From IMG/VR virus record IMGVR_UViG_3300029080_000073: a stretch of 21,388 nucleotides of DNA, one strand, 5' to 3'. The notes below the pieces were generated by a model. That model saw only the letters and a program-made list of their open reading frames with translations. It had not been told where the DNA came from and searched no databases. Each line of letters begins with the position of its first letter. Position 1 is the first letter of the stretch. A program made the position numbers and the translations under genes. Origin of the DNA: a virus. Its lineage: Duplodnaviria > Heunggongvirae > Uroviricota > Caudoviricetes. Below, piece after piece: positions 1 to 21,388 of the stretch.

Positions 1-531
1 TCAGGAAGAGGCTTCCGGAGAGACGGGCCATTCAATGGCGTTATATGAGGTTTTATCAGTGATGGTGCTGAAATCCATCGCCTGCAGCGATTTCGCGTAA
101 ATGCGCCAGACTGTCAGCTTTTCTTTTTCTTCATCACCGATGATTCCCAAAAGTAAATCCGTCTTCTTATCGGATATTTCCCGTTCGGCAATCGCAGTAA
201 GACGTGCACGCTCCGACTCTGCCTGCTGCCTGTAGTCAACAGGGACCGGTAGTACTTCACCGTCTTTATAATACCAGCGCGCCTCTATACAAAAGCCATC
301 CGGTAGTTCATCCACTTCCACAATGGTAAAACCAACGGGATAAAGACGGGATACATCTTCCGCCACGGAATAAATAACGCCGGTTTCAGGATGCGTGCAC
401 AGCTTGTATTTCTTCGTGAATTTATCCAGTGATTCATAAAAATCCTGCCCGTCTTCACTACGGAAATACTGAATGCCGTCACCATAAGGCATGTCTTCAG
501 GGTAGTAACGCGTAATGTTTGAGAGTTCCAT
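1..531 (-). CDS. tail fibre assembly protein (Tfa family)
   Basis: ORF track 1..567; start placed at the internal Met (MELSNITRYYPE...) preceded by AAGGAG; C-terminus ends in the IEWP motif typical of Tfa/Mu U-like proteins; stop codon at 1..3. Confidence 0.7.
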   Translation of the reverse strand: MELSNITRYYPEDMPYGDGIQYFRSEDGQDFYESLDKFTKKYKLCTHPETGVIYSVAEDVSRLYPVGFTIVEVDELPDGFCIEARWYYKDGEVLPVPVDYRQQAESERARLTAIAEREISDKKTDLLLGIIGDEEKEKLTVWRIYAKSLQAMDFSTITDKTSYNAIEWPVSPEASS

Positions 532-545
532 TATTTTCTCCTTAA

Positions 546-1598
546 TTAACCTGATACAGATCGCCATGCACCATTAATATAAATCTGAGCCTGTTTGTAA
601 TACACGCCACCGATATTGTCTGCAGAGTTACGGCCAGTATCCTGAACATTAATGCCTGACAAAACACAACCAGAAGGTGCTCGAAACGTCCAGCTGTGCT
701 CGTTCTGGTCCTGAGTAAACGTGACTTCCGAAACAAGCAGTTCGGTATTGTCGAAACCACAGACCGGATCAAAGACAATCACCCGCTGGTTGGGTTGCCA
801 CAGCGTACCGTTACCCTGTCGCCAGCCCTGCACCACATAGGTGGTTTCATCCGTCCGCGCCGCCCGTTGCCGGGCTTCAAAGTCAGCACGCGCAATACAG
901 CCTGCCCCCGTAGCCTGCCCTGTCTGCCTGATATACATCGGACGGTAACGGGCAATAAATGCGTCCTCTGTGCGGGCCCTCAGCGCGGTGGTGGTGGCCT
1001 CACCGAAATCATCGTCGTTTCCGGCACGCTGCCCCGCCACCTGGTAAACAGAAAACCGCTCCCGGATACTCTTCTCCGTATCGCAGGAAAGGATGTTTTC
1101 CCCGAGCACCAGCGCAGTATGCGCCCGCGTTGAGCCAATACCGCCAATCACCAGCCTGCCGTGCGGGTCGTCGTAAGCCAGTGCCTGCTGCTGACCGAGT
1201 ATTTTGTTGATTACCTCAATCACCGTTTCACCATGATCGGGCTGGACGTCAGGAATAACACCCGACGGCGCACCGCTGTTCACCACCTCAATGCCGAAGG
1301 GCGCAGCAAGCGCCTGCGCAATCTGTACCAGCGATCGTCCGTTAAACTGTGTCGGTTCGGCTGCACAGTCAATCAGGTCAGCAGTCAGACTACGTCCGGC
1401 AATACCGGTGCTGACCGAACGGGCATCGTAACGAACGGGGGTCGCCTCCACCCAGCCGGTGATCACCAGTTCATCACCAATCAGCACCTCCACTTTTGAA
1501 CCGTTTTTAATGCGCGGCTGAAGCGTGGTGATACCCCAGCTCGCGGACATCTTTCCCGGTGGGCTCATCAAACTCCAGTACGGAGAGTGTCTCGCCAT
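546..1598 (-). CDS. baseplate hub / late control D family tail protein (P2 gpD / Mu gp44-like)
   Basis: 350-aa ORF directly downstream of the tail tube gene; N-terminal pattern resembles gpD/VgrG-N family as remembered; family assignment is by recall only. Confidence 0.4.
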   Translation of the reverse strand: MARHSPYWSLMSPPGKMSASWGITTLQPRIKNGSKVEVLIGDELVITGWVEATPVRYDARSVSTGIAGRSLTADLIDCAAEPTQFNGRSLVQIAQALAAPFGIEVVNSGAPSGVIPDVQPDHGETVIEVINKILGQQQALAYDDPHGRLVIGGIGSTRAHTALVLGENILSCDTEKSIRERFSVYQVAGQRAGNDDDFGEATTTALRARTEDAFIARYRPMYIRQTGQATGAGCIARADFEARQRAARTDETTYVVQGWRQGNGTLWQPNQRVIVFDPVCGFDNTELLVSEVTFTQDQNEHSWTFRAPSGCVLSGINVQDTGRNSADNIGGVYYKQAQIYINGAWRSVSG

Positions 1599-1634
1599 GA
1601 GCGGTAATCGGTTTCTTTAACTCAAGCTCTTTCA

Positions 1635-1991
1635 TTACTGGTAATCCCCTTCTTCACCGTGGAACTCAAGATCGACCGTGCCTTCTTCGGCATTATGGTT
1701 CGCTTCGCCGTGCAGCCAGGCAGACGACAGTACATAGACCTGACCGTTCGCCAGCTCGGCAGTGATGGTCATCTCATCAGACGAGGTGATTTTGCTCACC
1801 GGAAAATTCTTCGGCACCTTGAAGGTCCCTTTGACATAAGGCGCACGGTGAGTTTCCTTGCGGTCCACTGAACCGTCCAGGCCGATGATGTCATCATTGA
1901 CCGTCCTGTTCATGGGCACCTCAATGCCGCCGGTCAGTGATAGCTGCTGACCGTCAATTTTGAAATAACAGGTTCCCCCGATACGGGCCAT
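1635..1991 (-). CDS. contractile-tail tube protein
   Basis: 118-aa ORF immediately after the sheath-like ORF (stop/start abut at 1991), with size and position typical of Mu gpM / P2 FII tube proteins. Confidence 0.5.
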   Translation of the reverse strand: MARIGGTCYFKIDGQQLSLTGGIEVPMNRTVNDDIIGLDGSVDRKETHRAPYVKGTFKVPKNFPVSKITSSDEMTITAELANGQVYVLSSAWLHGEANHNAEEGTVDLEFHGEEGDYQ

Positions 1992-2767
1992 TATGCAGAC
2001 TCCTCTGAATACTGAAGACGGAACTGGTTAACCACGGCAAAGACACGCAACTGGTTAACATAGTCAGGCGGGAACAGCGTGTTCAGGCGGTTCGGATCGC
2101 TGGCATCACGCTCCACAACCAGGTACTGCTTGAACAGTTCGTAGTTTTCCACGATCCCCGCACGCTCGAGCTGACGGTAGGTTGCCAGCAGTTCCCCTTT
2201 GATCACCGCCGGGGTGACAATCGCCTGACCGGGACCAAAGCGGGTACCGTCACTGGCAAGCTTGTGACGCCCGTACTTACTGGTAATGACGGATTTCAGT
2301 TTGCGCAGTACATACGCGCTGGTATGCAGCGTCTCGCTGTCGAGGTAGCTGTTATCCGCAACCCCGTAAGCGTTTTTCCTGTACGTGGTGACATCACGCT
2401 GAATGCGCAGCACCCCGCTTTCGACATACGCCGTTGCCACGCCATGAGACAGCAGGGTCTGCTGCTCGGTCATTGTGAACCGTTTCCCCTTCGGCGCAGG
2501 CAGCATACCCACCAGCTCACCGGTCTGCGTGGGACGTGCCGGATCGTTGCGGATAAACACTGCCGCGCGGGCGGTACGGCTGGCTGCCAGCTCGTCGGCA
2601 GGCGTCTGGGTGTCTTTTTCGTACCCCGCCAGGGTAATGTGCTGCTGGTTAAACTGGTCACCTGCGGTCACCAGTTCTGACAGCGTGCCGGTCTTTGCCG
2701 TATACACATGACCATACAGCTGACGCGCATAGCTCCAGCGACCGCTGGTATCGTTCATCTCGGTCAC
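1991..2767 (-). pseudogene. tail sheath protein, C-terminal portion only (truncated)
   Basis: 258-aa ORF directly upstream of the tube gene with a sheath-like C-terminus; too short for a sheath and overlaps the terminase fragment in another frame. Confidence 0.45.
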
Positions 2768-3332
2768 CGTCCTCCGGACGGCTCATGCTTTGAGCATGTA
2801 CTTCAATACCAAATGCTTCACGCAATGGCTCCGTGCGTTGCGCCATCAGTCTGGCTGGACGAAAAACTTCCCACGCCTGTTTCTCTGTTGTGGCCCCGGA
2901 ATACACTTCAGCGCCAAATTCATCATCGCAGGCAAACATATACAGACCAACGCCAGCAGACATTGCTGATTTCCCGTTTTTACGGGGTATTTCGTTGTAA
3001 GCCTCGCGAAATCGACGCAGACCGCTCTTTTTTCTCACCCACCCAAACACAACACAGATACAGAACAACTGCCAGGGTTCAAGCGTAATGGGCATCCGCT
3101 TAAATGCCCACTCCCCTTTGGTGTGTGGCAAAAGCTGGATAAATTTCGCCACCCGCTCAGCTTTATCTTTATCAAATTTAAACGGATAGTTTTTTTTAAC
3201 TGAATTTTCCAGGTCATCAAGGTGACGCTGGCAGGCTAGAACGACATAACGGCAAACCTGAATTTTTCCGCGAACCACGTCACGTGCATACTGATTTGCG
3301 GCATTAACGTTCACGTAATTTTTTCGTGTCAT
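2658..3332 (-). pseudogene. terminase large subunit, N-terminal ATPase fragment (truncated)
   Basis: Follows the small terminase gene with overlapping stop/start; Walker A-like PRKNGKS present; only 224 aa with a non-protein-like tail ([11 protein letters not shown]...), no nuclease domain. Confidence 0.6.
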
Positions 3333-3799
3333 AGGTTTTTAAATGGATTATCGCTCCCCTGCTTCGGCGTGATAAGCCGCTGCCGACTGGCAGGATCGAG
3401 TCCTAATAAACTACCGAATGTCACCATTTGTCTGGCGGCCTCATTTGCCGCCGTGAGTGCCGGGTTTTTCTTTGGCCCCGCCTCACTCTCTACCGTAATC
3501 CCAACGCGCATAACCTCCTGCTGCGACTCATGCCAGTTGCGAAAAGCAGTGCAGAATGCAACGACGTTGTGCAAATCAGTAACATAAAGAACTCGCTGGG
3601 CACAGAGCTCACGAATAATGGTGTCCCACATATGACGAGCGGTTTCATCAAACCACTCGGGAGGCTCAGCATGGGTGATCGGCGTGAATTTTGGTTCAAA
3701 CTTATTTAATGCCCGCTTGCCGGGATTGCCTGCCAGTTCCTTACGGGTAGTCGGCTTCGGCTTTCTCCCTCTTCCGGGCGCAACAGATTTTTCTGACAT
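3329..3799 (-). CDS. terminase small subunit, P27 family
   Basis: N-terminal signature [18 protein letters not shown] typical of P27-family small terminases; sits between the HNH endonuclease and large terminase genes. Confidence 0.75.
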
Positions 3800-3914
3800 G
3801 TCAAATCCTGAAATTTTTAATTTCGCGGGTGTAAAAATTTGACGAGGCGGGCGGTCCCGGACAGCCAGGGCTGCAGGGATTTGCCCCGCCCCTCCCTACA
3901 AGTGAGAATAATTA
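3800..3914. promoter_or_regulatory. candidate cos / packaging-site region between HNH and terS
   Basis: GC-rich non-coding spacer with symmetric G/C runs (ggggcgggg ... cccgcccgcc); HNH-terS-terL phages usually carry cos here. Confidence 0.25.
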
Positions 3915-4334
3915 TCACCTGATTCGTTCGCGCGCTGTTTTCGCTTTATGGCAGGGCCAGCACAGACTCTGCAGGTTGCTGTCTGCGTCTGTTCCGCCAT
4001 GCGCTTTCGGGATGATGTGGTCGACGGTTTTCGCCTCGCTCACCACACCGGCACGCAGACACAACTGACACAGACCTTTATCGCGCTTCAGAATACGGGC
4101 ACGAATCACCGTCCATTTTGAGCCATAGCCACGCTGGTGGCGGCTCAGTCCGCGCTGGTGCTGCACCCAGCCTTCACCACGATGTTTACCACAGTAGCCA
4201 GAACTGTCTGTTGTTGTGCCTGCGCAGCCTCGCTTACGACAGGCGCGGGGGATCCGTGATGGCATTGGAATCTCCTTAATACCGACATTATCGCAGCCCC
4301 TCACTGAAGAGCTGCTGTAATGCCTGTTACTCAC
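3915..4334 (-). CDS. HNH endonuclease (packaging-associated)
   Basis: HNH motif DHIIPKAHGGTDADSNLQSLCWPCHKAK with flanking Cys pairs; classic position just upstream of terS. Confidence 0.8.
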   Translation of the reverse strand: MSNRHYSSSSVRGCDNVGIKEIPMPSRIPRACRKRGCAGTTTDSSGYCGKHRGEGWVQHQRGLSRHQRGYGSKWTVIRARILKRDKGLCQLCLRAGVVSEAKTVDHIIPKAHGGTDADSNLQSLCWPCHKAKTARERIR

Positions 4335-4434
4335 GAATCAATCGAGCATGTTGACCGCTCATTTCAATGCGTAAGTATTGTGGCTTGCCGTCAATCAACG
4401 CGGTGATTAACTTATCACCTGTAGGTTTCCACAT
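4327..4434 (-). CDS. hypothetical small protein (35 aa)
   Basis: ATG preceded by a perfect AGGAGA at 5-nt spacing; translation MWKPTGDKLITALIDGKPQYLRIEMSGQHARLIRE; below the ORF-track size cutoff. Confidence 0.3.
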   Translation of the reverse strand: MWKPTGDKLITALIDGKPQYLRIEMSGQHARLIRE

Positions 4435-4607
4435 AATTTTCTCCTGTTTTAATGCCCCTTGCCGCCGGGCAGTTGATCAAAGTTCATCTTGATTCGGCAA
4501 GATTTAGAATGAATAAGATAAAATTGGCACACGCAGCAGAATTTCATGCTTTCCGGACGCTGACGCACCCTTCATTTTTCAGCAAAATATTCTGCTCTTA
4601 CAGGCGA

Positions 4608-4763
4608 TCAGTTCTGCAGACACTGCCGAACACCGTCGACAATTTCACAGACCTGAGACGCGGTATCGAAAAGCTGGCGCGCCTTATCCAGGCTGACGCA
4701 CCCCACCAATAAAAAAGGCACCAGTATCGCTACCAGTGCCCGTTTCACCGCCGTTCGCGGCAT
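4608..4763 (-). CDS. small lipoprotein (51 aa from internal Met; track ORF 4608..4790)
   Basis: Signal peptide MPRTAVKRALVAILVPFLLVG followed by lipobox Cys (LLVGC); 29-aa mature peptide with two more Cys. Confidence 0.4.
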   Translation of the reverse strand: MPRTAVKRALVAILVPFLLVGCVSLDKARQLFDTASQVCEIVDGVRQCLQN

Positions 4764-4996
4764 TCTGTGTGTCCAGTGTTTTCGCGCCATATCACCACCA
4801 ACGCACAGCCCAAATCAGAACAGCGACCGCCACAAGGCGAATTGCAAAGGCCGCAGCCCTTGTCAAATCAAGGCTCGCGGGAGTTTCCATTTCAATACCT
4901 TTCATAATGGACAACCTCAAAAAGAATCTTTTATACTTTCCCACGAGGATTTTCTCCGTACTCACTAATCACAATTTCCCCTTTGACGTGAAAACT

Positions 4997-5035
4997 AAAA
5001 ACCCCGGACTGTTCCCCCAGCCGGGGTTTTGTTTT
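4997..5035 (-). terminator. intrinsic terminator immediately 3' of the endolysin gene (may act in both directions)
   Basis: Stem aaaaccccgg / ccggggtttt flanked by A-run and T-run on both sides. Confidence 0.55.
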
Positions 5036-5037
5036 AC

Positions 5038-5421
5038 TTATCGCTTCAGCTGAAAGTGAGGTCCGTCTTTCAGCGTTTTCCAGTCCCCGCCCCATTCGAT
5101 AGCGATCCCCAGCTCTGCGGCAGCCTGCTTAAATGCCTGTGCGATTTTCTCGTACAGAGGCCACTCCCATGACACCTGACTGCCAATGTAGGCCACAACA
5201 TCCACCGCATCACCGGTCAGGTGGCGGCTGTTCATGGTCTGGCTTTTCCCTTCCGCAACCAGCTGTTTCTGGCGATACTTACTGCGCAGGCCTTCCGTAA
5301 TACCGAAATCAACCTCCGTCAGCTCCAGCGCACGGCGAACTACAGCAACCAGCTGTGGTTTGACACCCTCCAGATTTTTTTCACTGCGACGGCTGAATCT
5401 GAATTTACCCGGCATATTCAC
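5038..5421 (-). CDS. endolysin, peptidase M15 family (L-alanyl-D-glutamate peptidase type)
   Basis: Zn-ligand-like motifs HLTGDAVDV and GGDW...DGPHFQL characteristic of VanY/M15 phage endolysins. Confidence 0.8.
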   Translation of the reverse strand: MNMPGKFRFSRRSEKNLEGVKPQLVAVVRRALELTEVDFGITEGLRSKYRQKQLVAEGKSQTMNSRHLTGDAVDVVAYIGSQVSWEWPLYEKIAQAFKQAAAELGIAIEWGGDWKTLKDGPHFQLKR

Positions 5422-5693
5422 CTCAACAATGGAAAGATTTTTGTGACGTTCCCGCGTGCGCGTATCACCAGCACGCAGAACAGCAGATTAAAAAACACTT
5501 CCAACCAGCCCGTTGCTAACGGGCGACCACACAGATAGCTGAGGGGCGCAAAGGCATACAGCAGCATCAGCAGCCAGGCCAGCCATGACACCAGCGGTTT
5601 ATGCCTGGAATCACGGCGACGATAAAAAAAGAGCGTCAGCACGATAACCGCGCATAACGCCACATTCAGCAATCCGGGAAGGTTACTTAACAT
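5418..5693 (-). CDS. membrane protein of lysis cassette (holin/antiholin-like)
   Basis: Two hydrophobic helices (LLNVALCAVIVLTLFFY, LVSWLAWLLMLLYAFAPL); stop overlaps the endolysin start; start set at internal Met (track ORF 5418..5747). Confidence 0.45.
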   Translation of the reverse strand: MLSNLPGLLNVALCAVIVLTLFFYRRRDSRHKPLVSWLAWLLMLLYAFAPLSYLCGRPLATGWLEVFFNLLFCVLVIRARGNVTKIFPLLR

Positions 5694-6075
5694 TGCCGCC
5701 TCCTCCACCCCGCAGGCGGGAGAACACACCGGACACCAGCGATGCAATATCCTGCTGGTGGATGAACGAGAGAATCTTCACCGACACCACCGAGACCAGC
5801 ACCGCGCAAAGCGCATCTGCTGATGTAGCGTCATACCCTGTTTTTGATGCAATCCAGGCTGACAGCACACGCGCTCCCAGCACGCCGACAATAAACGACA
5901 CCAGAAAATGTGCCACCACGCGCCAGACTGAAAGTGACTGTGGCATTGTTGCCACAAATAACGCCCCGGCGAACGCGCCAAACACAATCCCGAAATCCAT
6001 CCCGGTAAACAGCCCGAATACCGTCGCGCCACCCAGCGCCGCAGCCGTGCCGGAACCGGATAAGGGTTCAGACAT
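5683..6075 (-). CDS. putative holin (multi-pass membrane protein)
   Basis: Gly/Ala-rich hydrophobic segments (GMDFGIVFGAFAGALFVA, FLVSFIVGVLGARVL); immediately upstream of the other lysis genes. Confidence 0.45.
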   Translation of the reverse strand: MSEPLSGSGTAAALGGATVFGLFTGMDFGIVFGAFAGALFVATMPQSLSVWRVVAHFLVSFIVGVLGARVLSAWIASKTGYDATSADALCAVLVSVVSVKILSFIHQQDIASLVSGVFSRLRGGGGGNVK

Positions 6076-6311
6076 ACTTCCTCCTGAAAATAAAAAAGGG
6101 CCACCAGCGACCCGTAAAAAAACACCCCGTCAAAGGCATCCGCAGATGCCTTTTGTGTGATGTTATTCAGATTTACGCAGTAAAGGCCGGAGCACGACCA
6201 GCGCCATCGCCACCAGCACACCATCTGCCAGCACCGACATCAGTCGTCCGGTGAAATCAACCACCACTACCAGAAACAACAGGATGACAGCCAGCACAAG
6301 GCGCGCACTTT

Positions 6312-6914
6312 TCACAGGTACTGCTCCAGCGGCAACTGCAGCGCCTGCGCAATTTTCTTCAGTTGCGCTTCTTCTTCCTGAGCGATACCGTCCTGGTCAG
6401 CGATATCCAGACACAGGCACAGCACATTAACTGCATCATCAGTACCGGCAACATCAGCCAGCTGACGAAGAGCTTCGGCATTGGCAGAACGCGGCGACGC
6501 TTCATAACGGGCGCGGATATTTGCACTCATTTGTGCAATCTCACCGGAGAACGGCGCAAAGGCAGGAAGTGCTGCAATGGTTTTTTCCAGTACCGCGATT
6601 TCTTTCGCGTCACAGGTGCCGTCAGCGTATGCAATGGAGTACGCGCCCCAGACGGTCGCCTCCACTGCGTCACGGTTCTCCATCTTCTTCACTTCGGTAA
6701 TGGCCTTGCGGGTTTTCTTTTTGAAAATACTAAACATCGTGACTTTTCCTTTTAGTGGGTGAGCCTGCATAACAAGCTGAGTCAGTATTAACTGGCAGCG
6801 TTCGCGTGAAAGGTAAGTATTCTGCGCAATTTCCCCGACGGTCGCCGGTTCGGTGACGCTTAATTCATTAAACACCACTCTGGCGGTTTCGGTCATATCC
6901 TGCTGTTTTAGCAT
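6312..6914 (-). CDS. TerB-like (tellurite-resistance-fold) domain protein, cargo gene
   Basis: Paired YADGTCDAKEIAVLEKTI and IADQDGIAQEEEAQLKKIAQAL motifs resemble the TerB fold; start set at internal Met preceded by AAAGG (track ORF begins 7037 inside the terminator). Confidence 0.45.
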   Translation of the reverse strand: MLKQQDMTETARVVFNELSVTEPATVGEIAQNTYLSRERCQLILTQLVMQAHPLKGKVTMFSIFKKKTRKAITEVKKMENRDAVEATVWGAYSIAYADGTCDAKEIAVLEKTIAALPAFAPFSGEIAQMSANIRARYEASPRSANAEALRQLADVAGTDDAVNVLCLCLDIADQDGIAQEEEAQLKKIAQALQLPLEQYL

Positions 6915-7035
6915 GCCTTTTTCCCTTTTCTGGTTAACGTGACATACCAATACCTCTTGTCGAAAAAGCCAGCAAGCTGAAAGACCAGTATTCACAACTA
7001 CCAGCGCGTTTAATGTTCTGTGCCGTTTTTCAGGC

Positions 7036-7063
7036 ATAAAAAAACCCGCATAAAGCGGGTTCT
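7036..7063 (-). terminator. intrinsic terminator downstream of Q (tR'-like)
   Basis: Stem aacccgc / gcgggtt with 5-nt loop; on the minus strand followed by a 7-T run. Confidence 0.55.
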
Positions 7064-7068
7064 TTCAG

Positions 7069-7226
7069 GTGTCCATGTCTGCTATTCGCCTCGCGGTACA
7101 GCTTTGCGAAGCGTAGCTGGATTGAAACAGTTTATGGCTAAAAATACAAGCTTTTTTTCTAAAACTGCACAAACCTTACTACCAGCCAAAAATCCTCTTC
7201 GTGCAACAACAAACGCCCTCCAGATT
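7069..7226 (-). promoter_or_regulatory. candidate late promoter / qut region between Q and the terminator
   Basis: Position only: about 160 bp AT-rich spacer between Q stop and terminator, as for lambda PR'-qut-tR'. Confidence 0.3.
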
Positions 7227-9646: not shown

Positions 9647-9802
9647 TTACTCCTCAGGTTCGTAAGCTGTGAAGACAGCGACCTCCGTCTGGCCGGTTCG
9701 GATTCGTACCTCGCAGAGGTCTTTCCTCGTTACCAGTGCCGTCACTATGACGGTTAAACAGATGACGATCAGGGCGATTAACATCGCCTTTTGCTGCTTC
9801 AT
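9647..9802 (-). CDS. hok: Hok/Gef family type I toxin (51 aa)
   Basis: MKQQKAMLIALIVICLTVIVTALVTRKDLCEVRIRTGQTEVAVFTAYEPEE matches the Hok/Gef family throughout (TM helix plus conserved C-terminal tail). Confidence 0.9.
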   Translation of the reverse strand: MKQQKAMLIALIVICLTVIVTALVTRKDLCEVRIRTGQTEVAVFTAYEPEE

Positions 9803-9859
9803 AGCCTGCTTCTCCTTGCCTTTCGGCACGTAAGAGGCTAACCTACATTTGTGAGACAT
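9647..9859 (-). CDS. mok: mok-like overlapping reading frame
   Basis: In-frame upstream extension (MSHKCRLASYVPKGKEKQA) of the hok ORF, as in hok/mok/sok loci. Confidence 0.55.
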   Translation of the reverse strand: MSHKCRLASYVPKGKEKQAMKQQKAMLIALIVICLTVIVTALVTRKDLCEVRIRTGQTEVAVFTAYEPEE

Positions 9860-9975
9860 AGATTGGGCCTCAGATTAATGTTAAGCGTCTTGCAGGACGC
9901 GTAATGTTAACTGGGGCTTTTCTCTATCTGCCTTTTGGTGTTCATGCCTGAGACAGATAGCCTCAAGCACCCGCA
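9860..9975 (+). ncRNA. sok: hok mRNA leader / predicted Sok antisense RNA region (exact ends not mapped)
   Basis: Region upstream of mok carries GCUUGAGGCU-like 5' end and local hairpins expected of the hok leader; Sok would lie on the opposite strand here. Confidence 0.3.
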
Positions 9976-10241: not shown

Positions 10242-10361
10242 TATTCCCCCTACAATCAATGTGCAATAACATTTAAACACACCTCAATTTGGCCGGACAT
10301 ATAAATATCTAAACCAGAAAAAATCACTTACATAGCGTTACAAACTCTTTAGTCTAAATAT

Positions 10362-10877
10362 TCATCGTAAAACATCCTCCACGCTTATCAGTCCATTTCG
10401 TTTCAGGTAATCCATCGCCTTCTCCGGTAATTTGCAGTCCGGCTGAGCTTTTTTCAGTTGACTGACCAGTCGTTTAACCCACATTGTTAATTCGCTAACC
10501 TGATTGCCGGATGCTGGTGGATTGTCGGCTTTACCCAGAATGGCAGCGCAGCAGGCCTCTCTGAGCACCCAGTCAACAGCATCCTTCCATGCTCCTGTTT
10601 CGACTGGCGGATTCTCACGCTTTACCTGTTCATAAAAGCGCACGGCTTTAACCAGTCCTTCTGATGTCACCGGGACTGGCGGGCCGATGAATAAGGCCTG
10701 AATTTCATAGTTCGGCCTGTCGTTACAATCCTCTTTTGTCGGTACATATTTCCAGTCACCAGCCCACGGCTTCCCCTGAAAGTCTGTAACGTCTTTTTTC
10801 ACGTAGCGATATCGCCATGCAACTGGTTTTGCCTGCCCTGCCGTTTCATGCCCTTCCTGATAATTAATCTCGCTCAT
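10362..10877 (-). CDS. hypothetical protein (171 aa), nin-region-like
   Basis: ORF track; start overlaps stop of the upstream small ORF (ATGA). Confidence 0.5.
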   Translation of the reverse strand: MSEINYQEGHETAGQAKPVAWRYRYVKKDVTDFQGKPWAGDWKYVPTKEDCNDRPNYEIQALFIGPPVPVTSEGLVKAVRFYEQVKRENPPVETGAWKDAVDWVLREACCAAILGKADNPPASGNQVSELTMWVKRLVSQLKKAQPDCKLPEKAMDYLKRNGLISVEDVLR

Positions 10878-11050
10878 TCATCGCCCCACTCATCACAATA
10901 TGCTTCGACCGGAGTTTTTCCTGCTTCATAATCATCACGCCATGCTTCAGCATCAGCAGCACTGCCACCACGTAACTCTGCATAGTCCATTAACAGTTCA
11001 TGCCATTCTTCAAAACTGACGTTGTATTTAGTTGAACCAAAATCAGCCAT
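10874..11050 (-). CDS. hypothetical small acidic protein (58 aa)
   Basis: Hand translation MADFGSTKYNVSFEEWHELLMDYAELRGGSAADAEAWRDDYEAGKTPVEAYCDEWGDE; 16 of 58 residues acidic; coupled stop/start with next gene. Confidence 0.35.
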   Translation of the reverse strand: MADFGSTKYNVSFEEWHELLMDYAELRGGSAADAEAWRDDYEAGKTPVEAYCDEWGDE

Positions 11051-11225
11051 TTTGTTCTTCCTCTTCGTCTTTTATTTCGTGATATGAGTAATTGCAGTAG
11101 TTAAAGAAAATATCTTTTGCTTCGTCATGTATTTCATCAGGCGTCGCATCATCATCCACTTCGAATTCATCCTCGAAATCTCCACCGGCTATTCCCGTTT
11201 CAATAATTATTTTAAACTTTCGCAT
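11043..11225 (-). CDS. hypothetical small highly acidic protein (60 aa)
   Basis: ORF track; 20 of 60 residues are D/E (FEDEFEVDDDATPDEIHDE ... KDEEEEQ); AT-rich. Confidence 0.35.
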   Translation of the reverse strand: MRKFKIIIETGIAGGDFEDEFEVDDDATPDEIHDEAKDIFFNYCNYSYHEIKDEEEEQNG

Positions 11226-11318
11226 TTAACTACCGCCCTTTCGGGCGGCCTCCTGATGTTCTGAGGGTGCAGAAATCCCTCCGGTTAAGGATTAAATTTT
11301 TAACAGAGCTAAATTTAA

Positions 11319-11675
11319 TTATTCAGTTCTGGATTTTGTCGCCCTGCGTATCCGCGCTTTCGCGTTACGCTCAATCTGAATTAGCTTTTCTATATTTTTT
11401 CGCCTTTCCCGCTCCTCCTGACGCAAGAGCCTTACATCATCTGCCAGTCTGGTTTCTCTTTTCGCCACAGAGAGCATCCAGTCAAATGGCTCCACAACTG
11501 CACCGCAGATTTTACAGCGGACCTGACGCTCTTTTTCGTCAACCCGGACAGAGGCGTGATGACAATATGGTCTTTCCGATGGCTCATAAAGAAAATTAAC
11601 CTGATTACGAGGGTCATCCTCTTTTACCGGAAATAAAACGATATTGCTTAACTCATCCTCTGGTTTTATTTCCAT
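11319..11675 (-). CDS. hypothetical zinc-ribbon protein with basic coiled-coil tail
   Basis: C-H-H ... C-K-I-C pattern followed by an R/K/E-rich C-terminus. Confidence 0.45.
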   Translation of the reverse strand: MEIKPEDELSNIVLFPVKEDDPRNQVNFLYEPSERPYCHHASVRVDEKERQVRCKICGAVVEPFDWMLSVAKRETRLADDVRLLRQEERERRKNIEKLIQIERNAKARIRRATKSRTE

Positions 11676-11755: not shown

Positions 11756-11950
11756 TTAGGTACCCGAACGATTCAGGATTTTTTCCACCCGCAACTGGCG
11801 ATTCTGGCGGTTGATCTCCTCGCTACGTTTTCGCCCTTCTGCCAGTTGCCACTCGCGCCACTCGTCCACTGTCCGGTACGGCGCGATTACATGCTGCGGG
11901 GTCAGCTTACGGATACGCTCAAGAACACCACCTGTCGCGATATTTTTCAT
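11756..11950 (-). CDS. hypothetical small protein (64 aa)
   Basis: ORF track; starts 7 bp after the replication gene stop. Confidence 0.35.
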   Translation of the reverse strand: MKNIATGGVLERIRKLTPQHVIAPYRTVDEWREWQLAEGRKRSEEINRQNRQLRVEKILNRSGT

Positions 11951-14163: not shown

Positions 14164-14355
14164 ATGAGTACAGCCCTTTCTCCGATAGTTTCAGAATTCG
14201 AAACTACCGAACAAGAAAACAGTTACAACGAATGGTTACGCGCTAAAGTGGCGTCAAGCCTTGCAGACCCTCGTCCCTCAATTCCACATGATGAGGTAAT
14301 GGCTGAAATGGAGAATCTTATTGCTCAAATTGCTGTAACTAACAGGAGCGAGTAA
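14164..14355 (+). CDS. type II antitoxin (ParD/RelB-like)
   Basis: 63-aa ORF whose stop overlaps the toxin start (ATGA), directly upstream of a ParE/RelE-fold toxin. Confidence 0.55.
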   Translation: MSTALSPIVSEFETTEQENSYNEWLRAKVASSLADPRPSIPHDEVMAEMENLIAQIAVTNRSE

Positions 14356-14642
14356 TGTTACCCATTTTGTGGCTACCATCTGCTCGCGATGATTTGCGTC
14401 AGATCGTAGCCTATATTGCTAAGGAAAATATTCCTGCAGCACGCAGACTAAAAATACGGATTGAAACGTCTGTTTTAGCCCTCTCTGAGCATCCATATCT
14501 ATATCCGCCAAGTGATCGAGTATCCGGTTTGCGGGAAATTGTGGTTCACCCTAATTATATCGTTTTGTACCGAGTAGCAGCTTCAAGCATTGAAATTGCA
14601 AATATTGTGCATGCCCGCCGACAATTTCCCTTCCCTATCTGA
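14355..14642 (+). CDS. type II toxin, ParE/RelE superfamily
   Basis: 95 aa; DDLRQIVAYIAKENIPAARRL ... GLREIVVHPNYIVLYRV ... IANIVHARR matches the ParE/RelE pattern. Confidence 0.7.
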   Translation: MLPILWLPSARDDLRQIVAYIAKENIPAARRLKIRIETSVLALSEHPYLYPPSDRVSGLREIVVHPNYIVLYRVAASSIEIANIVHARRQFPFPI

Positions 14643-17277: not shown

Positions 17278-19749
17278 ATGAGTAAAGTCTTTATTTGCGC
17301 CGCCATTCCGGACGAACAGGCAATAAAGGAAGAAGGTGCAGTCGCTGTAGCCACTGCCATTGAAGCCGGCGACGAACGTCGCGCCCGTGCCAAATTTACC
17401 TGGCAATTCCTGGAGCAATATCCGGCTGCTCAGGACTGCGCTTATAAATTTCTTGTCTGCGAGGATAAACCCGGCATGCCCCGCCCTGCCATCGACTCTT
17501 GGGATGCTGAATATATGCAGGAAAACCGCTGGGATGAGGAGTCAGCTTCCTTTGTCCCGGTTGAGACTGAATCAGATCCGATGAACGTCACTTTTGACAA
17601 GCTGGCCCCTGAAGTACAGAACGCTGTCATGGTTAAGTTCGACACATGTGAAAACATCACCGTTGATATGGTGATTAGTGCACAGGAACTGTTGCAGGAA
17701 GACATGGCAACATTCGACGGACATATCGTTGAAGCGTTGATGAAAATGCCAGAAGTTAACGCCATGTATCCGGAGCTTAAGCTGCATGCCATCGGGTGGG
17801 TTAAGCATAAATGTAAGCCTGGAGCTAAATGGCCCGAAATTCAGGCAGAGATGCGCATCTGGAAAAAACGTCGCGAAGGTGAACGCAAGGAAACCGGAAA
17901 ATACACGTCTGCTGCTGATCTCGTCCGCGCCAGAGCCAATCAACAGAACACTGAAAATTCAACAGGAAAAATCAGCCCGGTCATTGCTGCCACTCATCGC
18001 GAATACAAGCAGACATGGAAAACACTGGATGATGAACTGGCCTACGCTCTGTGGCCTGGTGACATTGATGCCGGAAACATTGACGGCAGCATCCATCGCT
18101 GGGCAAAAAATGAAGTTATCAACAACGACCGCGAAGACTGGAAGCGTATCTCAGCATCAATGCGCAAACAGCCTGATGCCCTTCGCTACGACCGCCAGAC
18201 TATTTTTGGCCTTGTCCGTGAGCGTCCGATCGACATTCACAAAGACCCTGTGGCACTGAACAAATACATTACTGAATACCTGACTACAAAGGGCGTGTTT
18301 GAAGATGAAGGAACAAATCAGAGCGCAACTGATACTCTCTCGTCGCCAGTACCAGAAACTGATGCAGTGGAAACGGCAATTCCGGACAACGAAAAAACCG
18401 AATGCAAAGTGGAAGTCGAACCATCTGTAGAGCGTGAGGGGCCGTTCTACTTCCTCTTCACCGACAAGGATGGCGAAAAATACGGTCGCGCAAACAAACT
18501 TTCTGGTCTGGATAAGGCGCTGTCTGCTGGGGCTACTGAAATCACGAAAGAAGAATATTTCGCCCGCAAAAACGGTACATACTCAGGTTCACAACAAAAT
18601 ACTGGTGCATCTGACACGACCGCACAACCAGGGTCAGTAAAAGTTACCGCTGACGAAGTAAACAAAATTATGCAGGCAGCCAATATCAGCCAGCCTGACG
18701 CCGATGAACTGCTTGCAGTATCACGTGGTGAATTTGTTGAAGGGATTAGCGACCCGAATGATCCGAAATGGGTTAAGGGGATCCAGACCCGCGATTCTGT
18801 GAACCAGAACCAGCAAGAAACGGAACAGAACGACCAGAAAGCGGAACAAAACAGCCCAAATACGCAACAAAACGAGCCAGAAACGAAACAACCTGAACCA
18901 GTAGTGCAACAGGAACCGGAAAAGATCTGCACCGCCTGCGGTCATAGCGGTGGCGGCAACTGCCCTGATTGTGGTGCGGTGATGGGTGACGCAACATACC
19001 AGGAAATATTCGATGGAGAGAATCAGCCTGAAGTTCAGGAAAATGATCCGGAGGAAATGGAAGGCACTGCGCATCAGCACAAGGAGAACACTGGCGGCAA
19101 TCAGCATCATGCCAGCGATAGTGAAACTGGCGAGGCGTCAGATCCCTTAATTAAGGCGAACGGTCATCATAATCTCACATCCACCAGCAGAGCGGGGATT
19201 CATCTGATGATCGACCTTGAAACCATGGGAAAAAATCCCGATGCCCCGATTATCTCAATAGGTGCAATATTTTTCGATCCGCAAACCGGAGATATGGGAC
19301 CGGAATTTAGTAAGACTATCGATCTGGAAACTGCTGGCGGAGTCATTGATCGGGACACCATTAAATGGTGGCTTAAGCAATCACGCGAAGCGCAATCTGC
19401 CATTATGACCGATGAAATCCCGTTAGATGATGCACTGTTACAATTGCGGGAATTTATCGACGAAAACTCCGGTGAATTTTTTGTTCAGGTCTGGGGAAAT
19501 GGAGCCAACTTCGACAACACGATTTTGCGCCGTTCATACGAACGGCAGGGGATCCCCTGCCCGTGGCGTTACTACAACGATCGCGATGTACGCACAATCG
19601 TTGAGCTGGGGAAAGCCATAGACTTCGATGCCAGAACGGCTATTCCATTCGAAGGTGAGCGCCATAATGCACTTGATGACGCCCGTTACCAGGCAAAATA
19701 CGTTTCAGCTATCTGGCAAAAACTGATCCCGAGTCAGGCTGATTCTTAA
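17278..19749 (+). CDS. 823-aa protein: YdfE/RecE-N-like region, zinc ribbon, C-terminal DEDDh (DnaQ-like) 3'-5' exonuclease domain
   Basis: C-terminal exonuclease motifs MIDLETMG, WGNGANFDNTIL and HNALDDARYQ; C-x2-C-x7-C-x2-C ribbon (CTACGHSGGGNCPDC); Q/E/N-rich linker. Confidence 0.7.
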   Translation: MSKVFICAAIPDEQAIKEEGAVAVATAIEAGDERRARAKFTWQFLEQYPAAQDCAYKFLVCEDKPGMPRPAIDSWDAEYMQENRWDEESASFVPVETESDPMNVTFDKLAPEVQNAVMVKFDTCENITVDMVISAQELLQEDMATFDGHIVEALMKMPEVNAMYPELKLHAIGWVKHKCKPGAKWPEIQAEMRIWKKRREGERKETGKYTSAADLVRARANQQNTENSTGKISPVIAATHREYKQTWKTLDDELAYALWPGDIDAGNIDGSIHRWAKNEVINNDREDWKRISASMRKQPDALRYDRQTIFGLVRERPIDIHKDPVALNKYITEYLTTKGVFEDEGTNQSATDTLSSPVPETDAVETAIPDNEKTECKVEVEPSVEREGPFYFLFTDKDGEKYGRANKLSGLDKALSAGATEITKEEYFARKNGTYSGSQQNTGASDTTAQPGSVKVTADEVNKIMQAANISQPDADELLAVSRGEFVEGISDPNDPKWVKGIQTRDSVNQNQQETEQNDQKAEQNSPNTQQNEPETKQPEPVVQQEPEKICTACGHSGGGNCPDCGAVMGDATYQEIFDGENQPEVQENDPEEMEGTAHQHKENTGGNQHHASDSETGEASDPLIKANGHHNLTSTSRAGIHLMIDLETMGKNPDAPIISIGAIFFDPQTGDMGPEFSKTIDLETAGGVIDRDTIKWWLKQSREAQSAIMTDEIPLDDALLQLREFIDENSGEFFVQVWGNGANFDNTILRRSYERQGIPCPWRYYNDRDVRTIVELGKAIDFDARTAIPFEGERHNALDDARYQAKYVSAIWQKLIPSQADS

Positions 19750-19821
19750 TGTTCAACTGTCGCCGGTTGTGACTGGTATTCTGCAACCGGCGCTCGTCTG
19801 ATGTAAGAGATAAAGAAATCG

Positions 19822-20073
19822 ATGAGCGAAGTAATCATGATTGTCTCTCCCGGCAAATGGGTATCCGAAGAGCAGTTAATTGCGCTGAAAGGAATAAAAA
19901 AAGGTACGTTAAAAAAGGCCCGGGAAAAATCGTTTATGGAAGGAAGGGAATATAAGCATGTCGCTCATGACGGTATGCCATGGGATAACAGTCCATGCTT
20001 TTACAACCTGGAAGAAATTGATCGCTGGATTGAGCGCCAGGCATCAGCAAGACCAAGACGTCATCTTACTTGA
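19822..20073 (+). CDS. xis: excisionase-like protein
   Basis: 83-aa basic ORF immediately upstream of the integrase gene; positional plus weak family recall. Confidence 0.55.
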   Translation: MSEVIMIVSPGKWVSEEQLIALKGIKKGTLKKAREKSFMEGREYKHVAHDGMPWDNSPCFYNLEEIDRWIERQASARPRRHLT

Positions 20074-20092
20074 CTAAAAGCCACACTAACTA

Positions 20093-21388
20093 ATGAGAGA
20101 AGTTGAAATGAAATATCCGACAGGCGTGGAAAACCATGGAGGGAAATTACGTATCTGGTTTGTTTATAAAGGCGTAAGAGTCAGGGAAAACCTGGGGGTT
20201 CCTGACACAGCAAAAAACAGGCGCGTTGCAGGTGAGCTACGCGCCTCTGTTTGTTACGCAATAAAAACTGGTGTTTTCGACTATGCAAAACAGTTTCCCT
20301 CCTCACGCAATCTGGAAAAATTTGGTGAGGCCCGACAAGATTTAACCATAAAAGAACTGGCTGAAAAATTTCTGGCACTGAAAGAAACTGAAGTCGCAAA
20401 AACATCACTCAACACATACCGTGCCGTCATCAAAAATATCCTGAGCATAATCGGTGAAAAAAATCTTGCCTCATCGATTAATAAAGAAAAATTACTGGAG
20501 GTTCGTAAAGAGCTACTGACTGGATACCAGATCCCCAAAAGTAACTATATTGTTACACAACCAGGGAGATCGGCTGTAACTGTAAATAATTACATGACAA
20601 ATCTTAACGCCGTGTTCCAGTTTGGTGTTGATAACGGTTACCTGGCAGATAACCCGTTTAAGGGGATCTCGCCATTAAAGGAATCAAGAACCATTCCGGA
20701 TCCTCTTTCGCGGGAGGAATTCATCCGTCTTATCGATGCGTGCAGAAATCAGCAAGCCAAAAATTTATGGTGTGTTTCTGTTTATACTGGCGTTCGCCCT
20801 GGTGAGCTGTGTGCACTTGGATGGGAGGACATAGATCTGAAAAATGGAACAATGATGATCAGGAGAAATTTAGCAAAAGACCGTTTCACGGTACCAAAAA
20901 CACAGGCGGGAACCAATCGGGTCATTCATCTTATTAAGCCAGCAATCGACGCTCTCCGGAGTCAGATGACATTAACGAGACTGAGCAAAGAGCATATCAT
21001 TGATGTTCACCTCAGAGAGTATGGCAGAACAGAAAAACATAAATGCACCTTTGTTTTTCAACCTGAAGTGTCAGCGAGAGTAAAAAATTATGGTGACCAT
21101 TTTACCGTTGACTCAATAAGGCAGATGTGGGACGCAGCGATAAAACGTGCCGGACTCCGCCATCGAAAATCATATCAGTCGAGACATACTTATGCCTGCT
21201 GGTCGCTGACAGCTGGTGCTAACCCAGCATTTATAGCAAACCAGATGGGCCATGCAGATGCGCAAATGGTATTTCAGGTATACGGAAAATGGATGTCTGA
21301 AAACAATAATGCACAGGTAGCTTTGTTAAATACACAGTTAAGCGAGTTTGCCCCAACCATGCCCCATAACGAAGCAATGAAAAATTAA
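20093..21388 (+). CDS. int: phage integrase, tyrosine recombinase
   Basis: Catalytic-domain pattern: Arg in YTGVRPGE, H-x-x-R in SRHTYACW, terminal Tyr in QVYGKWM; N-terminal arm-binding-like region; last gene before window end. Confidence 0.9.
   Translation: MREVEMKYPTGVENHGGKLRIWFVYKGVRVRENLGVPDTAKNRRVAGELRASVCYAIKTGVFDYAKQFPSSRNLEKFGEARQDLTIKELAEKFLALKETEVAKTSLNTYRAVIKNILSIIGEKNLASSINKEKLLEVRKELLTGYQIPKSNYIVTQPGRSAVTVNNYMTNLNAVFQFGVDNGYLADNPFKGISPLKESRTIPDPLSREEFIRLIDACRNQQAKNLWCVSVYTGVRPGELCALGWEDIDLKNGTMMIRRNLAKDRFTVPKTQAGTNRVIHLIKPAIDALRSQMTLTRLSKEHIIDVHLREYGRTEKHKCTFVFQPEVSARVKNYGDHFTVDSIRQMWDAAIKRAGLRHRKSYQSRHTYACWSLTAGANPAFIANQMGHADAQMVFQVYGKWMSENNNAQVALLNTQLSEFAPTMPHNEAMKN

What the first reader, a model, noticed from the sequence alone, without database searches (positions are those of the whole stretch)
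2650..2820. Deletion scar joining a truncated large terminase to a truncated tail sheath
The terL ORF keeps only its Walker A ATPase start (224 aa), then degenerates into low-complexity sequence. It overlaps in another frame a 258-aa sheath C-terminal ORF that runs straight into a tail tube gene. Portal, capsid and most tail genes are absent, so one deletion likely removed the central morphogenesis module and left the prophage unable to make particles.
Basis: partly seen in the sequence, partly recalled or inferred. Interest (0 to 1): 0.5.

Follow-up and report, generated by a model that had tools for sequence, protein, structure and literature searches.

The report
Deletion scar in a decaying prophage
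A 7.35-kb deletion in an E. coli prophage fused the start of the DNA-packaging gene to the end of the tail-sheath gene, removing every head gene; this is ordinary prophage decay, and related strains show it was the first of several deletions.

Summary
On the minus strand, a 224-aa ORF (2658..3332) holds TerL residues 1-189, then 35 residues of out-of-frame sheath DNA. It overlaps a 258-aa ORF (1991..2767), which is sheath residues 241-498 and abuts an intact tube gene.

Intact relatives place the breakpoint at window 2765-2768, a 4-bp microhomology (CACC). About 7,352 bp are missing: the rest of terL, ymfR, portal, protease, capsid, connectors, tail terminator and the sheath N-terminus.

The prophage is SfV/phiP27-like (HK97-type head, Mu-type contractile tail) and sits at the E. 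coli potB|potC site. The identical junction occurs in at least seven other public records, including two NCBI genome assemblies, so it is not an assembly artefact.

These lie at 1530-1536 (7-bp microhomology, 3.7 kb) and 701-705 (5 bp, 5.2 kb, an in-frame gpP::fibre fusion). Two more lie at 6768 and 11762|11763. Sibling contigs that are 100% identical in retained DNA carry only the terL-sheath scar plus deletions of their own, so that scar is the oldest shared event.

This is a known phenomenon (cryptic prophage erosion by illegitimate recombination) and of low interest.

The parts
3915..4265 (-). HNH endonuclease gene, intact. It is 116 aa as called in related contigs; the ORF from the first start codon runs to 4334.
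   Evidence: Pfam HNH; 116-aa call in L010/L031; 97% identical to phiP27 L34.
3844..3853 (.). Inferred cos cohesive-end site between the HNH and terS genes. It differs by one base from phiP27 (GAGGCGGGCG versus GGGGCGGGCG).
   Evidence: The phiP27 'cos-site' annotation was mapped by alignment. This is inferred, not tested.
3329..3799 (-). Small terminase subunit (P27 family), intact, 156 aa.
   Evidence: Pfam Terminase_4; RefSeq annotation in L001.
2765..3332 (-). 5' remnant of terL: codons 1-189 of 576. Walker A is kept; Walker B and the nuclease domain are lost.
   Evidence: the terL side is 99.75% identical to L001.
2658..2764 (-). 35-codon tail of the terL ORF. It is sheath DNA read out of frame, up to the first stop codon.
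2765..2768 (.). J3 junction: 4-bp microhomology CACC shared by both parental sites (12 of 16 bases match if extended). About 7,352 bp are deleted.
   Evidence: Null P(>=4 bp) = 0.019.
1991..2768 (-). 3' remnant of the tail sheath gene: codons 241-498 of 498. The apparent GTG start at 2767 is the former Val241 codon.
   Evidence: There are no amino-acid differences from L002.
1635..1991 (-). Tail tube gene, intact, 118 aa.
   Evidence: Pfam Tail_tube, profile 1-115 of 117.
1507..1635 (-). Tail assembly chaperone remnant: the N-terminal 35 aa of 89, plus 7 out-of-frame codons.
   Evidence: Phage_TAC_7 (weak).
1530..1536 (.). J2 junction: 7-bp microhomology GATACCC. 3,667 bp are deleted relative to the 100%-identical sibling L032 (4,288 bp relative to L002). 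Lost: the chaperone C-terminus, the tape measure, the DNA circularization protein and the first 45 codons of gpP.
   Evidence: Null P(>=7 bp) = 0.0007.
701..1536 (-). Remnant of the Mu gpP/gp44-like baseplate hub gene. It lacks 45 N-terminal and about 36 C-terminal codons.
   Evidence: Pfam GpP-like_1st, Gp44-like_2nd and GpP_4th.
701..705 (.). J1 junction: 5-bp microhomology CGTTC. About 5,169 bp are deleted: gp45, gp46, baseplate J, gp48, a 349-aa protein and most of the 369-aa fibre. The result is an in-frame gpP::fibre fusion.
   Evidence: the siblings' gene content is.
546..705 (-). The last ~53 codons of the 369-aa tail fibre gene, fused in frame to gpP.
1..531 (-). Tail fibre assembly gene, intact, 176 aa.
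   Evidence: Pfam Caudo_TAP; 176-aa call in L010.
6768..6768 (.). J5 junction: 1-bp overlap, 1,695 bp deleted (tRNA-Arg, tRNA-Ile, N6/N4 DNA methyltransferase). It extends the TerB-like ORF to 241 aa.
11762..11763 (.). J4 junction: blunt, 0-bp microhomology, 1,659 bp deleted. Lost: the C-terminus of the DnaC/IstB-like loader, DUF1627, DUF4406 and the ead N-terminus.

Best explanation
The region is a scar (J3) left by one ~7.35-kb illegitimate-recombination deletion inside an SfV/phiP27-type temperate prophage at the E. coli potB|potC site. This phage type has an HK97-type head and cos packaging module followed by a Mu-type contractile tail.

Shown: the deletion joined codon 189 of terL to codon 241 of the sheath gene across a 4-bp microhomology, out of frame. 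It removed the rest of terL, ymfR, portal, prohead protease, major capsid, head-tail connectors, tail terminator, DUF2635 and the sheath N-terminus.

Inferred: both remnants are pseudogenes. The TerL stub has Walker A but no Walker B and no nuclease domain. The sheath stub lacks its N-terminal 240 residues. The prophage therefore cannot build or fill capsids.

Shown by comparison with siblings: J3 was the first shared event. The disabled late region was then eroded further by independent deletions (J1, J2, J4 and J5 in this window; others in sibling lineages).

Inferred: the enzymology is RecA-independent end-joining or replication slippage at 0-8-bp microhomologies.
For: Domain content.

Switch in similarity: window 1530-2768 matches the sheath/tube region of L001 and L002 at 98-99%. 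Window 2753-6768 matches the terL-to-lysis region of L001 at 99.75%. In the intact prophages both blocks lie in one prophage, in the same order and orientation, 7.35 kb apart.

Base-level junction and microhomology. The chance of >=4, >=5 and >=7 bp of microhomology is 0.019, 0.006 and 0.0007.

Protein end-points and motifs.

Phage family: the terL side is 97.3% identical to phiP27 and the sheath side 98% identical to SfI, SfV, SfII and SfIV. The shared module order of these phages, their myovirus morphology and their cos packaging are described in PMC3636060.

Reality of the junction: the identical sequence occurs in OBVG01000095.1. It also occurs in ENA ERZ28566121, ERZ27315357 and Logan SRR8490395. 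It further occurs in Logan SRR31140281, SRR27242116 and NCBI GCA_034465785.1 and GCA_044148465.1.

Order of events: L032 and L042 carry J3 but keep tape measure, DNA_circ, gpP, gp45-48 and fibres, at 100% identity to the window.
Against: No J3-free ancestor with 100% identity was found, so the exact deleted length (7,352 bp) comes from 98-99.75% relatives. Successive overlapping deletions that erased earlier junctions cannot be excluded.

Four bp of microhomology is only modestly above chance on its own (P ~0.02).

Loss of function and inability to form particles are inferred from gene content, not tested.

No complete RefSeq E. coli genome (0 of 5,426) and no GTDB species representative carries the junction, so it is confined to a rare lineage.
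Confidence: 0.9

Rival explanations
1. The junction is an assembly artefact: a chimeric join, or a collapse between related prophages in a metagenome.
For: The window is 100% identical to a metagenome contig. The window's right end, from about 18.3 kb, does look hybrid or chimeric.
Against: The same 61-mer junction appears in at least 8 independently assembled records made by different pipelines, including two NCBI genome assemblies. The parental sites share only 4 bp, far below any assembler k-mer.
Confidence: 0.02
2. The scar arose by illegitimate recombination between two different resident prophages, a phiP27-type supplying terL and an SfV-type supplying the sheath, rather than by deletion within one prophage.
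For: E. coli genomes often hold several related prophages: a median of 2 and up to 7 matching places per genome. The terL side is closest to phiP27 and the sheath side to SfI/SfV. The window's right end shows that exchange between the pot-site and Qin-site prophages is possible.
Against: Prophages with exactly this combination exist intact. L001 has the phiP27-type terL at 99.75% and the SfV-type sheath at 98.2% in one element at the same potB|potC site. An inter-prophage event would also rearrange or delete chromosome between the sites, yet ERZ28566121 scaffold_63 runs potB-prophage-potC colinearly.
Confidence: 0.05
3. The remnant is a selected, functional element. It could be a helper-dependent cos satellite that keeps cos, HNH and terS, or a tail-derived tailocin-like device, rather than neutral debris.
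For: The window keeps cos, HNH, terS, the lysis genes, the immunity region, hok/sok and PaaA2-ParE. The sibling L032 keeps a nearly whole tail module.
Against: Sibling lineages have deleted cos, HNH and the terS start (J6), or the lysis genes (L040), or the tail module (the window itself), so no late function is consistently retained. The sheath lacks 240 N-terminal residues in all of them. The DnaC-like replication loader is truncated in the window.
Confidence: 0.03

Closest known systems
SfV / SfI / SfII / SfIV serotype-converting Shigella phages and Stx2e phage phiP27, plus intact E. coli prophages of this type such as the potB|potC prophage of ATCC 43886
   Same: The late-gene order is the same: HNH-cos-terS-terL-...-sheath-tube-chaperone-tape measure-...-baseplate-fibre-tfa. 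Nucleotide identity of the retained parts is 97-99.75%.
   Different: The window lacks 7.35 kb between terL codon 189 and sheath codon 241, and a further ~8.8 kb of tail genes. It cannot encode a virion.
Cryptic, deletion-decayed prophages of E. coli K-12. e14 is the classic SfV-related remnant; Qin, Rac and CPS-53 are others.
   Same: The kind of object is the same: a lambdoid prophage whose morphogenesis genes are reduced to fragments by internal deletions while the regulatory, TA and accessory genes persist. e14's relatedness to SfV/SfI late genes is stated in PMC3636060. An independent deletion between the chaperone and baseplate genes of an SfV-type tail at argW was seen in L004.
   Different: The integration site differs (potB|potC) and so do the breakpoints. 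This remnant is recent: it is 100% identical to less-deleted siblings. The fragment names and content of e14 are from my own knowledge and were not tested here.
Microhomology-mediated illegitimate recombination in E. coli: replication slippage, or alternative end-joining with short or no homology
   Same: The junctions show 0-8 bp of homology (J4 0, J5 1, J3 4, J1 5, J2 7, J6 8), and kilobase-scale deletions with no IS element or att site at the ends.
   Different: The mechanism is inferred from scars only. No enzymology is available, and the mix of blunt and microhomology junctions does not single out one pathway.

Membership tests
Large terminase subunit (Pfam TerL_ATPase PF03354 + TerL_nuclease PF20441) | N-terminal ATPase start with the Walker A P-loop | tested here: met
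   PF03354 hit at E = 2.5e-13 over profile positions 1-74. PRKNGKS at residues 116-122. Residues 1-189 are identical to WP_001297671.1 of L001.
Large terminase subunit (Pfam TerL_ATPase PF03354 + TerL_nuclease PF20441) | Complete ATPase core (Walker B / catalytic acid) and C-terminal nuclease domain | tested here: not met
   The ORF leaves the TerL frame after residue 189. The Walker B-like CALIDE (207-212) and residues 190-576 are absent, and there is no nuclease hit. It is a pseudogene fragment, not a functional member.
Contractile tail sheath (Pfam Phage_sheath_1 PF04984 + Phage_sheath_1C PF17482) | Conserved C-terminal sheath domains | tested here: met
   PF04984 at E = 1.2e-25 (profile 37-168) and PF17482 at E = 3.3e-22. 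Residues 241-498 are identical to the L002 sheath.
Contractile tail sheath (Pfam Phage_sheath_1 PF04984 + Phage_sheath_1C PF17482) | Full-length protein including the N-terminal 240 residues, with its own start and ribosome-binding site | tested here: not met
   Only 258 of 498 codons remain. The GTG at the junction is the former Val241 codon.
SfV/phiP27-type temperate phage (HK97-type head, Mu-type tail, cos packaging) | Characteristic late-gene order and high nucleotide identity to named members | tested here: met
   97.3% identity to phiP27 (HNH-cos-terS-terL) and 97.7-98.1% to SfI/SfV/SfII/SfIV (sheath-tube-chaperone). Siblings carry Mu Gp45, GP46, Baseplate_J, Mu Gp48 and DNA_circ_N.
SfV/phiP27-type temperate phage (HK97-type head, Mu-type tail, cos packaging) | Complete virion gene set (portal, protease, capsid, connectors, tape measure, baseplate) | tested here: not met
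   All of these are absent from the window. They are present in L001, L002 and L033.
Defective (cryptic) prophage produced by internal deletion | Integrated at a bacterial att site, with truncated essential genes whose flanks are colinear with intact relatives | tested here: met
   potB on the left and int-potC on the right in ERZ28566121. Five deletion junctions were mapped at base resolution.
Defective (cryptic) prophage produced by internal deletion | Inability to produce particles on induction | not testable with these tools
   This is inferred from gene content only.

The most novel reading that the evidence does not exclude
The terL-sheath scar may be the founding lesion of an unusually well-sampled, still ongoing erosion of one clonal prophage. 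Public assemblies whose retained DNA is 99.95-100% identical differ by at least ten independent deletions (0-8 bp microhomology), and two different deletions hit the same replication-loader region.

If so, this lineage would be a natural time series. It could be used to measure deletion versus substitution rates in a freshly disabled prophage. It could also test whether the erosion is neutral or selected, for example through loss of replication or lysis functions and retention of the TA and immunity genes.
Probability: 0.4. Interest if true: 0.35.

Novelty: already known. Interest (0 to 1): 0.2.

Why it matters
The finding mostly matters for annotation. The 224-aa 'terminase' and 258-aa 'sheath' ORFs should be flagged as pseudogene fragments, and the element as a defective prophage that cannot make virions. 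It may still excise, express immunity, TA and lysis functions, and recombine with incoming phages.

A secondary use is in studying how quickly bacteria dismantle disabled prophages. The set of sibling assemblies shares this scar but differs by later deletions, which gives a clean small example of stepwise, deletion-biased prophage decay.

Tried and rejected
- Two scans of GTDB species representatives for the junction (a 32-mer and a 22-mer) found nothing.
- No complete RefSeq E. coli genome covers the junction.
- Exact-protein look-ups found nothing on record for the 224-aa TerL fusion, the 350-aa gpP fusion (longest-ORF start) and the 823-aa exonuclease. Gene callers chose other starts or skipped these ORFs. 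The look-ups that worked were the 42-aa J2 product, the 255-aa sheath call and the 141-aa TerB call.
- H29 looked at first like a genome sharing J2, but it is an unrelated deletion in a different prophage at argW.
- I checked whether L001's own mosaic breakpoint coincides with J2. It does not: L001 and L002 stay colinear through that point.
- Five short contigs that start 0-2 nt before the 255-aa sheath start do not carry J3. They are 98-99% variants broken at a graph branch.
- A literature search for the original e14/SfV comparison paper did not find it in the library. The SfI genome paper was used instead.
- Rfam and tRNA scans added only sok.

Full report
**1. What is in the sequence**

All late genes run on the minus strand. 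ORF 2658..3332 (224 aa) overlaps ORF 1991..2767 (258 aa) by 110 nt in another frame. The 258-aa ORF abuts ORF 1635..1991 (118 aa).

Pfam assigns these ORFs as follows:
- The 224-aa ORF matches TerL_ATPase, but only profile positions 1-74 of 178.
- The 258-aa ORF matches Phage_sheath_1 (positions 37-168 of 168) plus Phage_sheath_1C.
- The 118-aa ORF is a full Tail_tube.

Upstream lie an intact P27-family small terminase (3329..3799) and an HNH endonuclease. Downstream lie a gpP/gp44-like baseplate protein (546..1598) and a tail-fibre assembly protein (1..567).

**2. The breakpoint**

A megablast of 1500-4400 against 5,426 complete E. coli genomes gave two non-overlapping sets of hits. One set begins at window 2761 (terL/terS/HNH). 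The other ends at window 2768 (sheath/tube/chaperone). No genome covers both.

Two intact relatives were fetched: L001 (ATCC 43886, prophage at potB|potC) and L002 (UTAK-3, prophage at ydfJ). In both, terL (576-577 aa) and the sheath gene (498 aa) lie in one prophage. Between them sit ymfR, portal, HK97-family protease, major capsid, connector, head closure, a hypothetical gene, tail terminator and DUF2635.

Window 2753-6768 matches L001 19993-24008 at 99.75%. Window 1530-2768 matches L001 11418-12656 at 98.2% and L002 at 99.3%.

At base resolution, the sheath side matches exactly up to 2768 and the terL side exactly from 2765. The junction is therefore the 4-bp microhomology CACC (12 of 16 bases match if extended), and 7,352 bp are missing.

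The window TerL ORF is identical to the L001 TerL for 189 residues. It keeps the P-loop PRKNGKS (116-122) and loses CALIDE (207-212) and everything after it. Its last 35 residues are sheath DNA read out of frame. The sheath ORF equals residues 241-498, with no differences from L002, and its GTG 'start' is the old Val241 codon.

**3. What the element is**

The terL side is 97.3% identical to Stx2e phage phiP27, including its annotated cos site, which maps to window 3844-3853. The sheath side is 97.7-98.1% identical to SfI, SfV, SfII and SfIV.

These phages share one packaging and morphogenesis module order, have contractile tails and use cos packaging (PMC3636060).

The flanks place the prophage at the potB|potC site. 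They are phoQ-roxA-pepT-potA-potB on the left. In ENA scaffold BAEC15-1_63 they are xis-int(372 aa)-potC-potD on the right.

**4. Not an artefact**

The junction 22-mer is absent from GTDB species representatives but present in metagenome contig OBVG01000095.1, which is 100% identical to window 1-7219.

Exact-protein look-ups found the same sequence, junction included, in these records:
- ENA ERZ28566121 and ERZ27315357
- Logan SRR8490395, SRR31140281 and SRR27242116
- NCBI GCA_034465785.1 and GCA_044148465.1

With only 4 bp shared by the parental sites, an assembler join is not credible.

**5.

Relative to intact relatives or 100%-identical siblings, the window carries four other scars:

| Scar | Window position | Microhomology | Size | Genes lost or altered |
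|---|---|---|---|---|
| J2 | 1530-1536 | GATACCC (7 bp) | 3,667 bp vs L032 | chaperone C-terminus, tape measure, DNA circularization protein, first 45 codons of gpP |
| J1 | 701-705 | CGTTC (5 bp) | ~5,169 bp | gp45, gp46, baseplate J, gp48, a 349-aa protein, most of the fibre; gives an in-frame gpP::fibre fusion |
| J5 | 6768 | 1-bp overlap | 1,695 bp | tRNA-Arg, tRNA-Ile, DNA methyltransferase |
| J4 | 11762\|11763 | blunt (0 bp) | 1,659 bp | DnaC/IstB-like loader C-terminus, DUF1627, DUF4406, ead N-terminus |

In a null model with random endpoints in L002, the probability of >=4, >=5 and >=7 bp of microhomology is 0.019, 0.006 and 0.0007. Several junctions are therefore microhomology-driven, while J4 and J5 are essentially blunt.

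**6. Order of events**

L032 (SRR31140281) and L042 (GCA_044148465.1) are 100% identical to the window through J3. They still encode the full chaperone, tape measure, DNA_circ, gpP, Mu Gp45, GP46, Baseplate_J, Mu Gp48 and fibres, as well as the methyltransferase and the replication loader.

They have their own 668-bp deletion (J6, window 3723-4390, 8-bp microhomology GCTTGCCG). It removes the terS start, cos and HNH. They also lack window 10255-11547.

L041 and L043 share J3 and J6 and add larger losses. L040 (ERR14205536) has a holin-to-fibre deletion. It also has a different deletion overlapping the J4 region.

J3 is therefore the oldest shared lesion, and later erosion is lineage specific. 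Sampling depth is unknown, so no rate claim is made.

**7. Mechanism**

Shown: one junction, out of frame, with 4-bp microhomology and no IS element or att sequence.

Inferred: RecA-independent illegitimate recombination (slippage or end-joining). Both remnants are pseudogenes, and the prophage cannot make capsids. After J1 and J2 it cannot make tails either. Whether it still excises or lyses was not tested.

**8. Comparison and verdict**

This is the familiar fate of lambdoid prophages in E. coli; e14 is a related SfV-type remnant. An independent example in a different prophage was seen in L004.

The amendments are that the tail genes were lost in separate events and that the ORF tail is frame-shifted sheath DNA.

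Novelty: already known in kind. Interest: low.

Noticed in passing
window ~18000-21388: The window's right end is a hybrid. Up to about 18.0 kb it is identical to the pot-site prophage of ERZ28566121, which ends int(372 aa)-potC. From about 18.3 kb it is 100% identical to the exo-xis-int(426 aa) block that is followed by rspB (Qin site) in all 10 contexts examined. This is either a real crossover in the shared exonuclease gene, which would imply a ~0.45-Mb inversion between the two inversely oriented prophages, or a chimeric assembly. Logan contigs break at 17529-17539.
   Followed up: partly
window 11762|11763, and L027/L040 (ERR14205536): The DnaC/IstB-like replication loader region was deleted twice independently. 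In the window lineage the deletion is 1,659 bp and blunt. In ERR14205536 a different deletion joins window 11550 to a point 144 bp further into the loader gene, giving a 187-aa fusion ORF. This could be a hotspot, or selection against prophage replication.
   Followed up: partly
window 6312-7037 (junction at 6768): A 1,695-bp deletion removed tRNA-Arg, tRNA-Ile and an N6/N4 DNA methyltransferase. It extended the TerB-like ORF from 141 to 241 aa. Siblings L027, L028 and L032 keep the methyltransferase. ARAGORN finds no tRNA gene in the window.
   Followed up: yes
window 3723-4390 (deleted in L032, L041, L042 and L043): A sibling sub-lineage lost the terS start, the inferred cos site and the HNH gene through a 668-bp deletion with 8-bp microhomology GCTTGCCG. 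The packaging signals are therefore not conserved after J3.
   Followed up: yes
window 9647-9972 (-) and 14164-14642 (+): Two addiction modules sit in the retained early region. One is hok with a full-length sok RNA (Rfam RF01794, 120 bits). The other is a PaaA2-ParE toxin-antitoxin pair next to the HTH repressor.
   Followed up: no
window 3844-3853: The inferred 10-nt cos core differs from phiP27's annotated site by one base (GAGGCGGGCG versus GGGGCGGGCG). Its significance is unknown.
   Followed up: no
L001 1-13400 (E. coli ATCC 43886, NZ_CP024256): The 'intact' reference prophage is itself a mosaic. An SfV-type sheath, tube and chaperone are followed by lambda-type tape measure, L, K-like peptidase, I and a frameshifted J, then Lom and a side tail fibre. 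This mixes contractile-tail and siphovirus tail-tip genes.
   Followed up: no
L004 11895-12723 (E. coli GIMC1405:EC_Lstone01, argW/intS site): An unrelated SfV-type prophage remnant has its own deletion between the tail assembly chaperone and the baseplate gpP gene. It also lacks all head genes, with cscA sucrose genes adjacent. This is a parallel decay of the same module.
   Followed up: no
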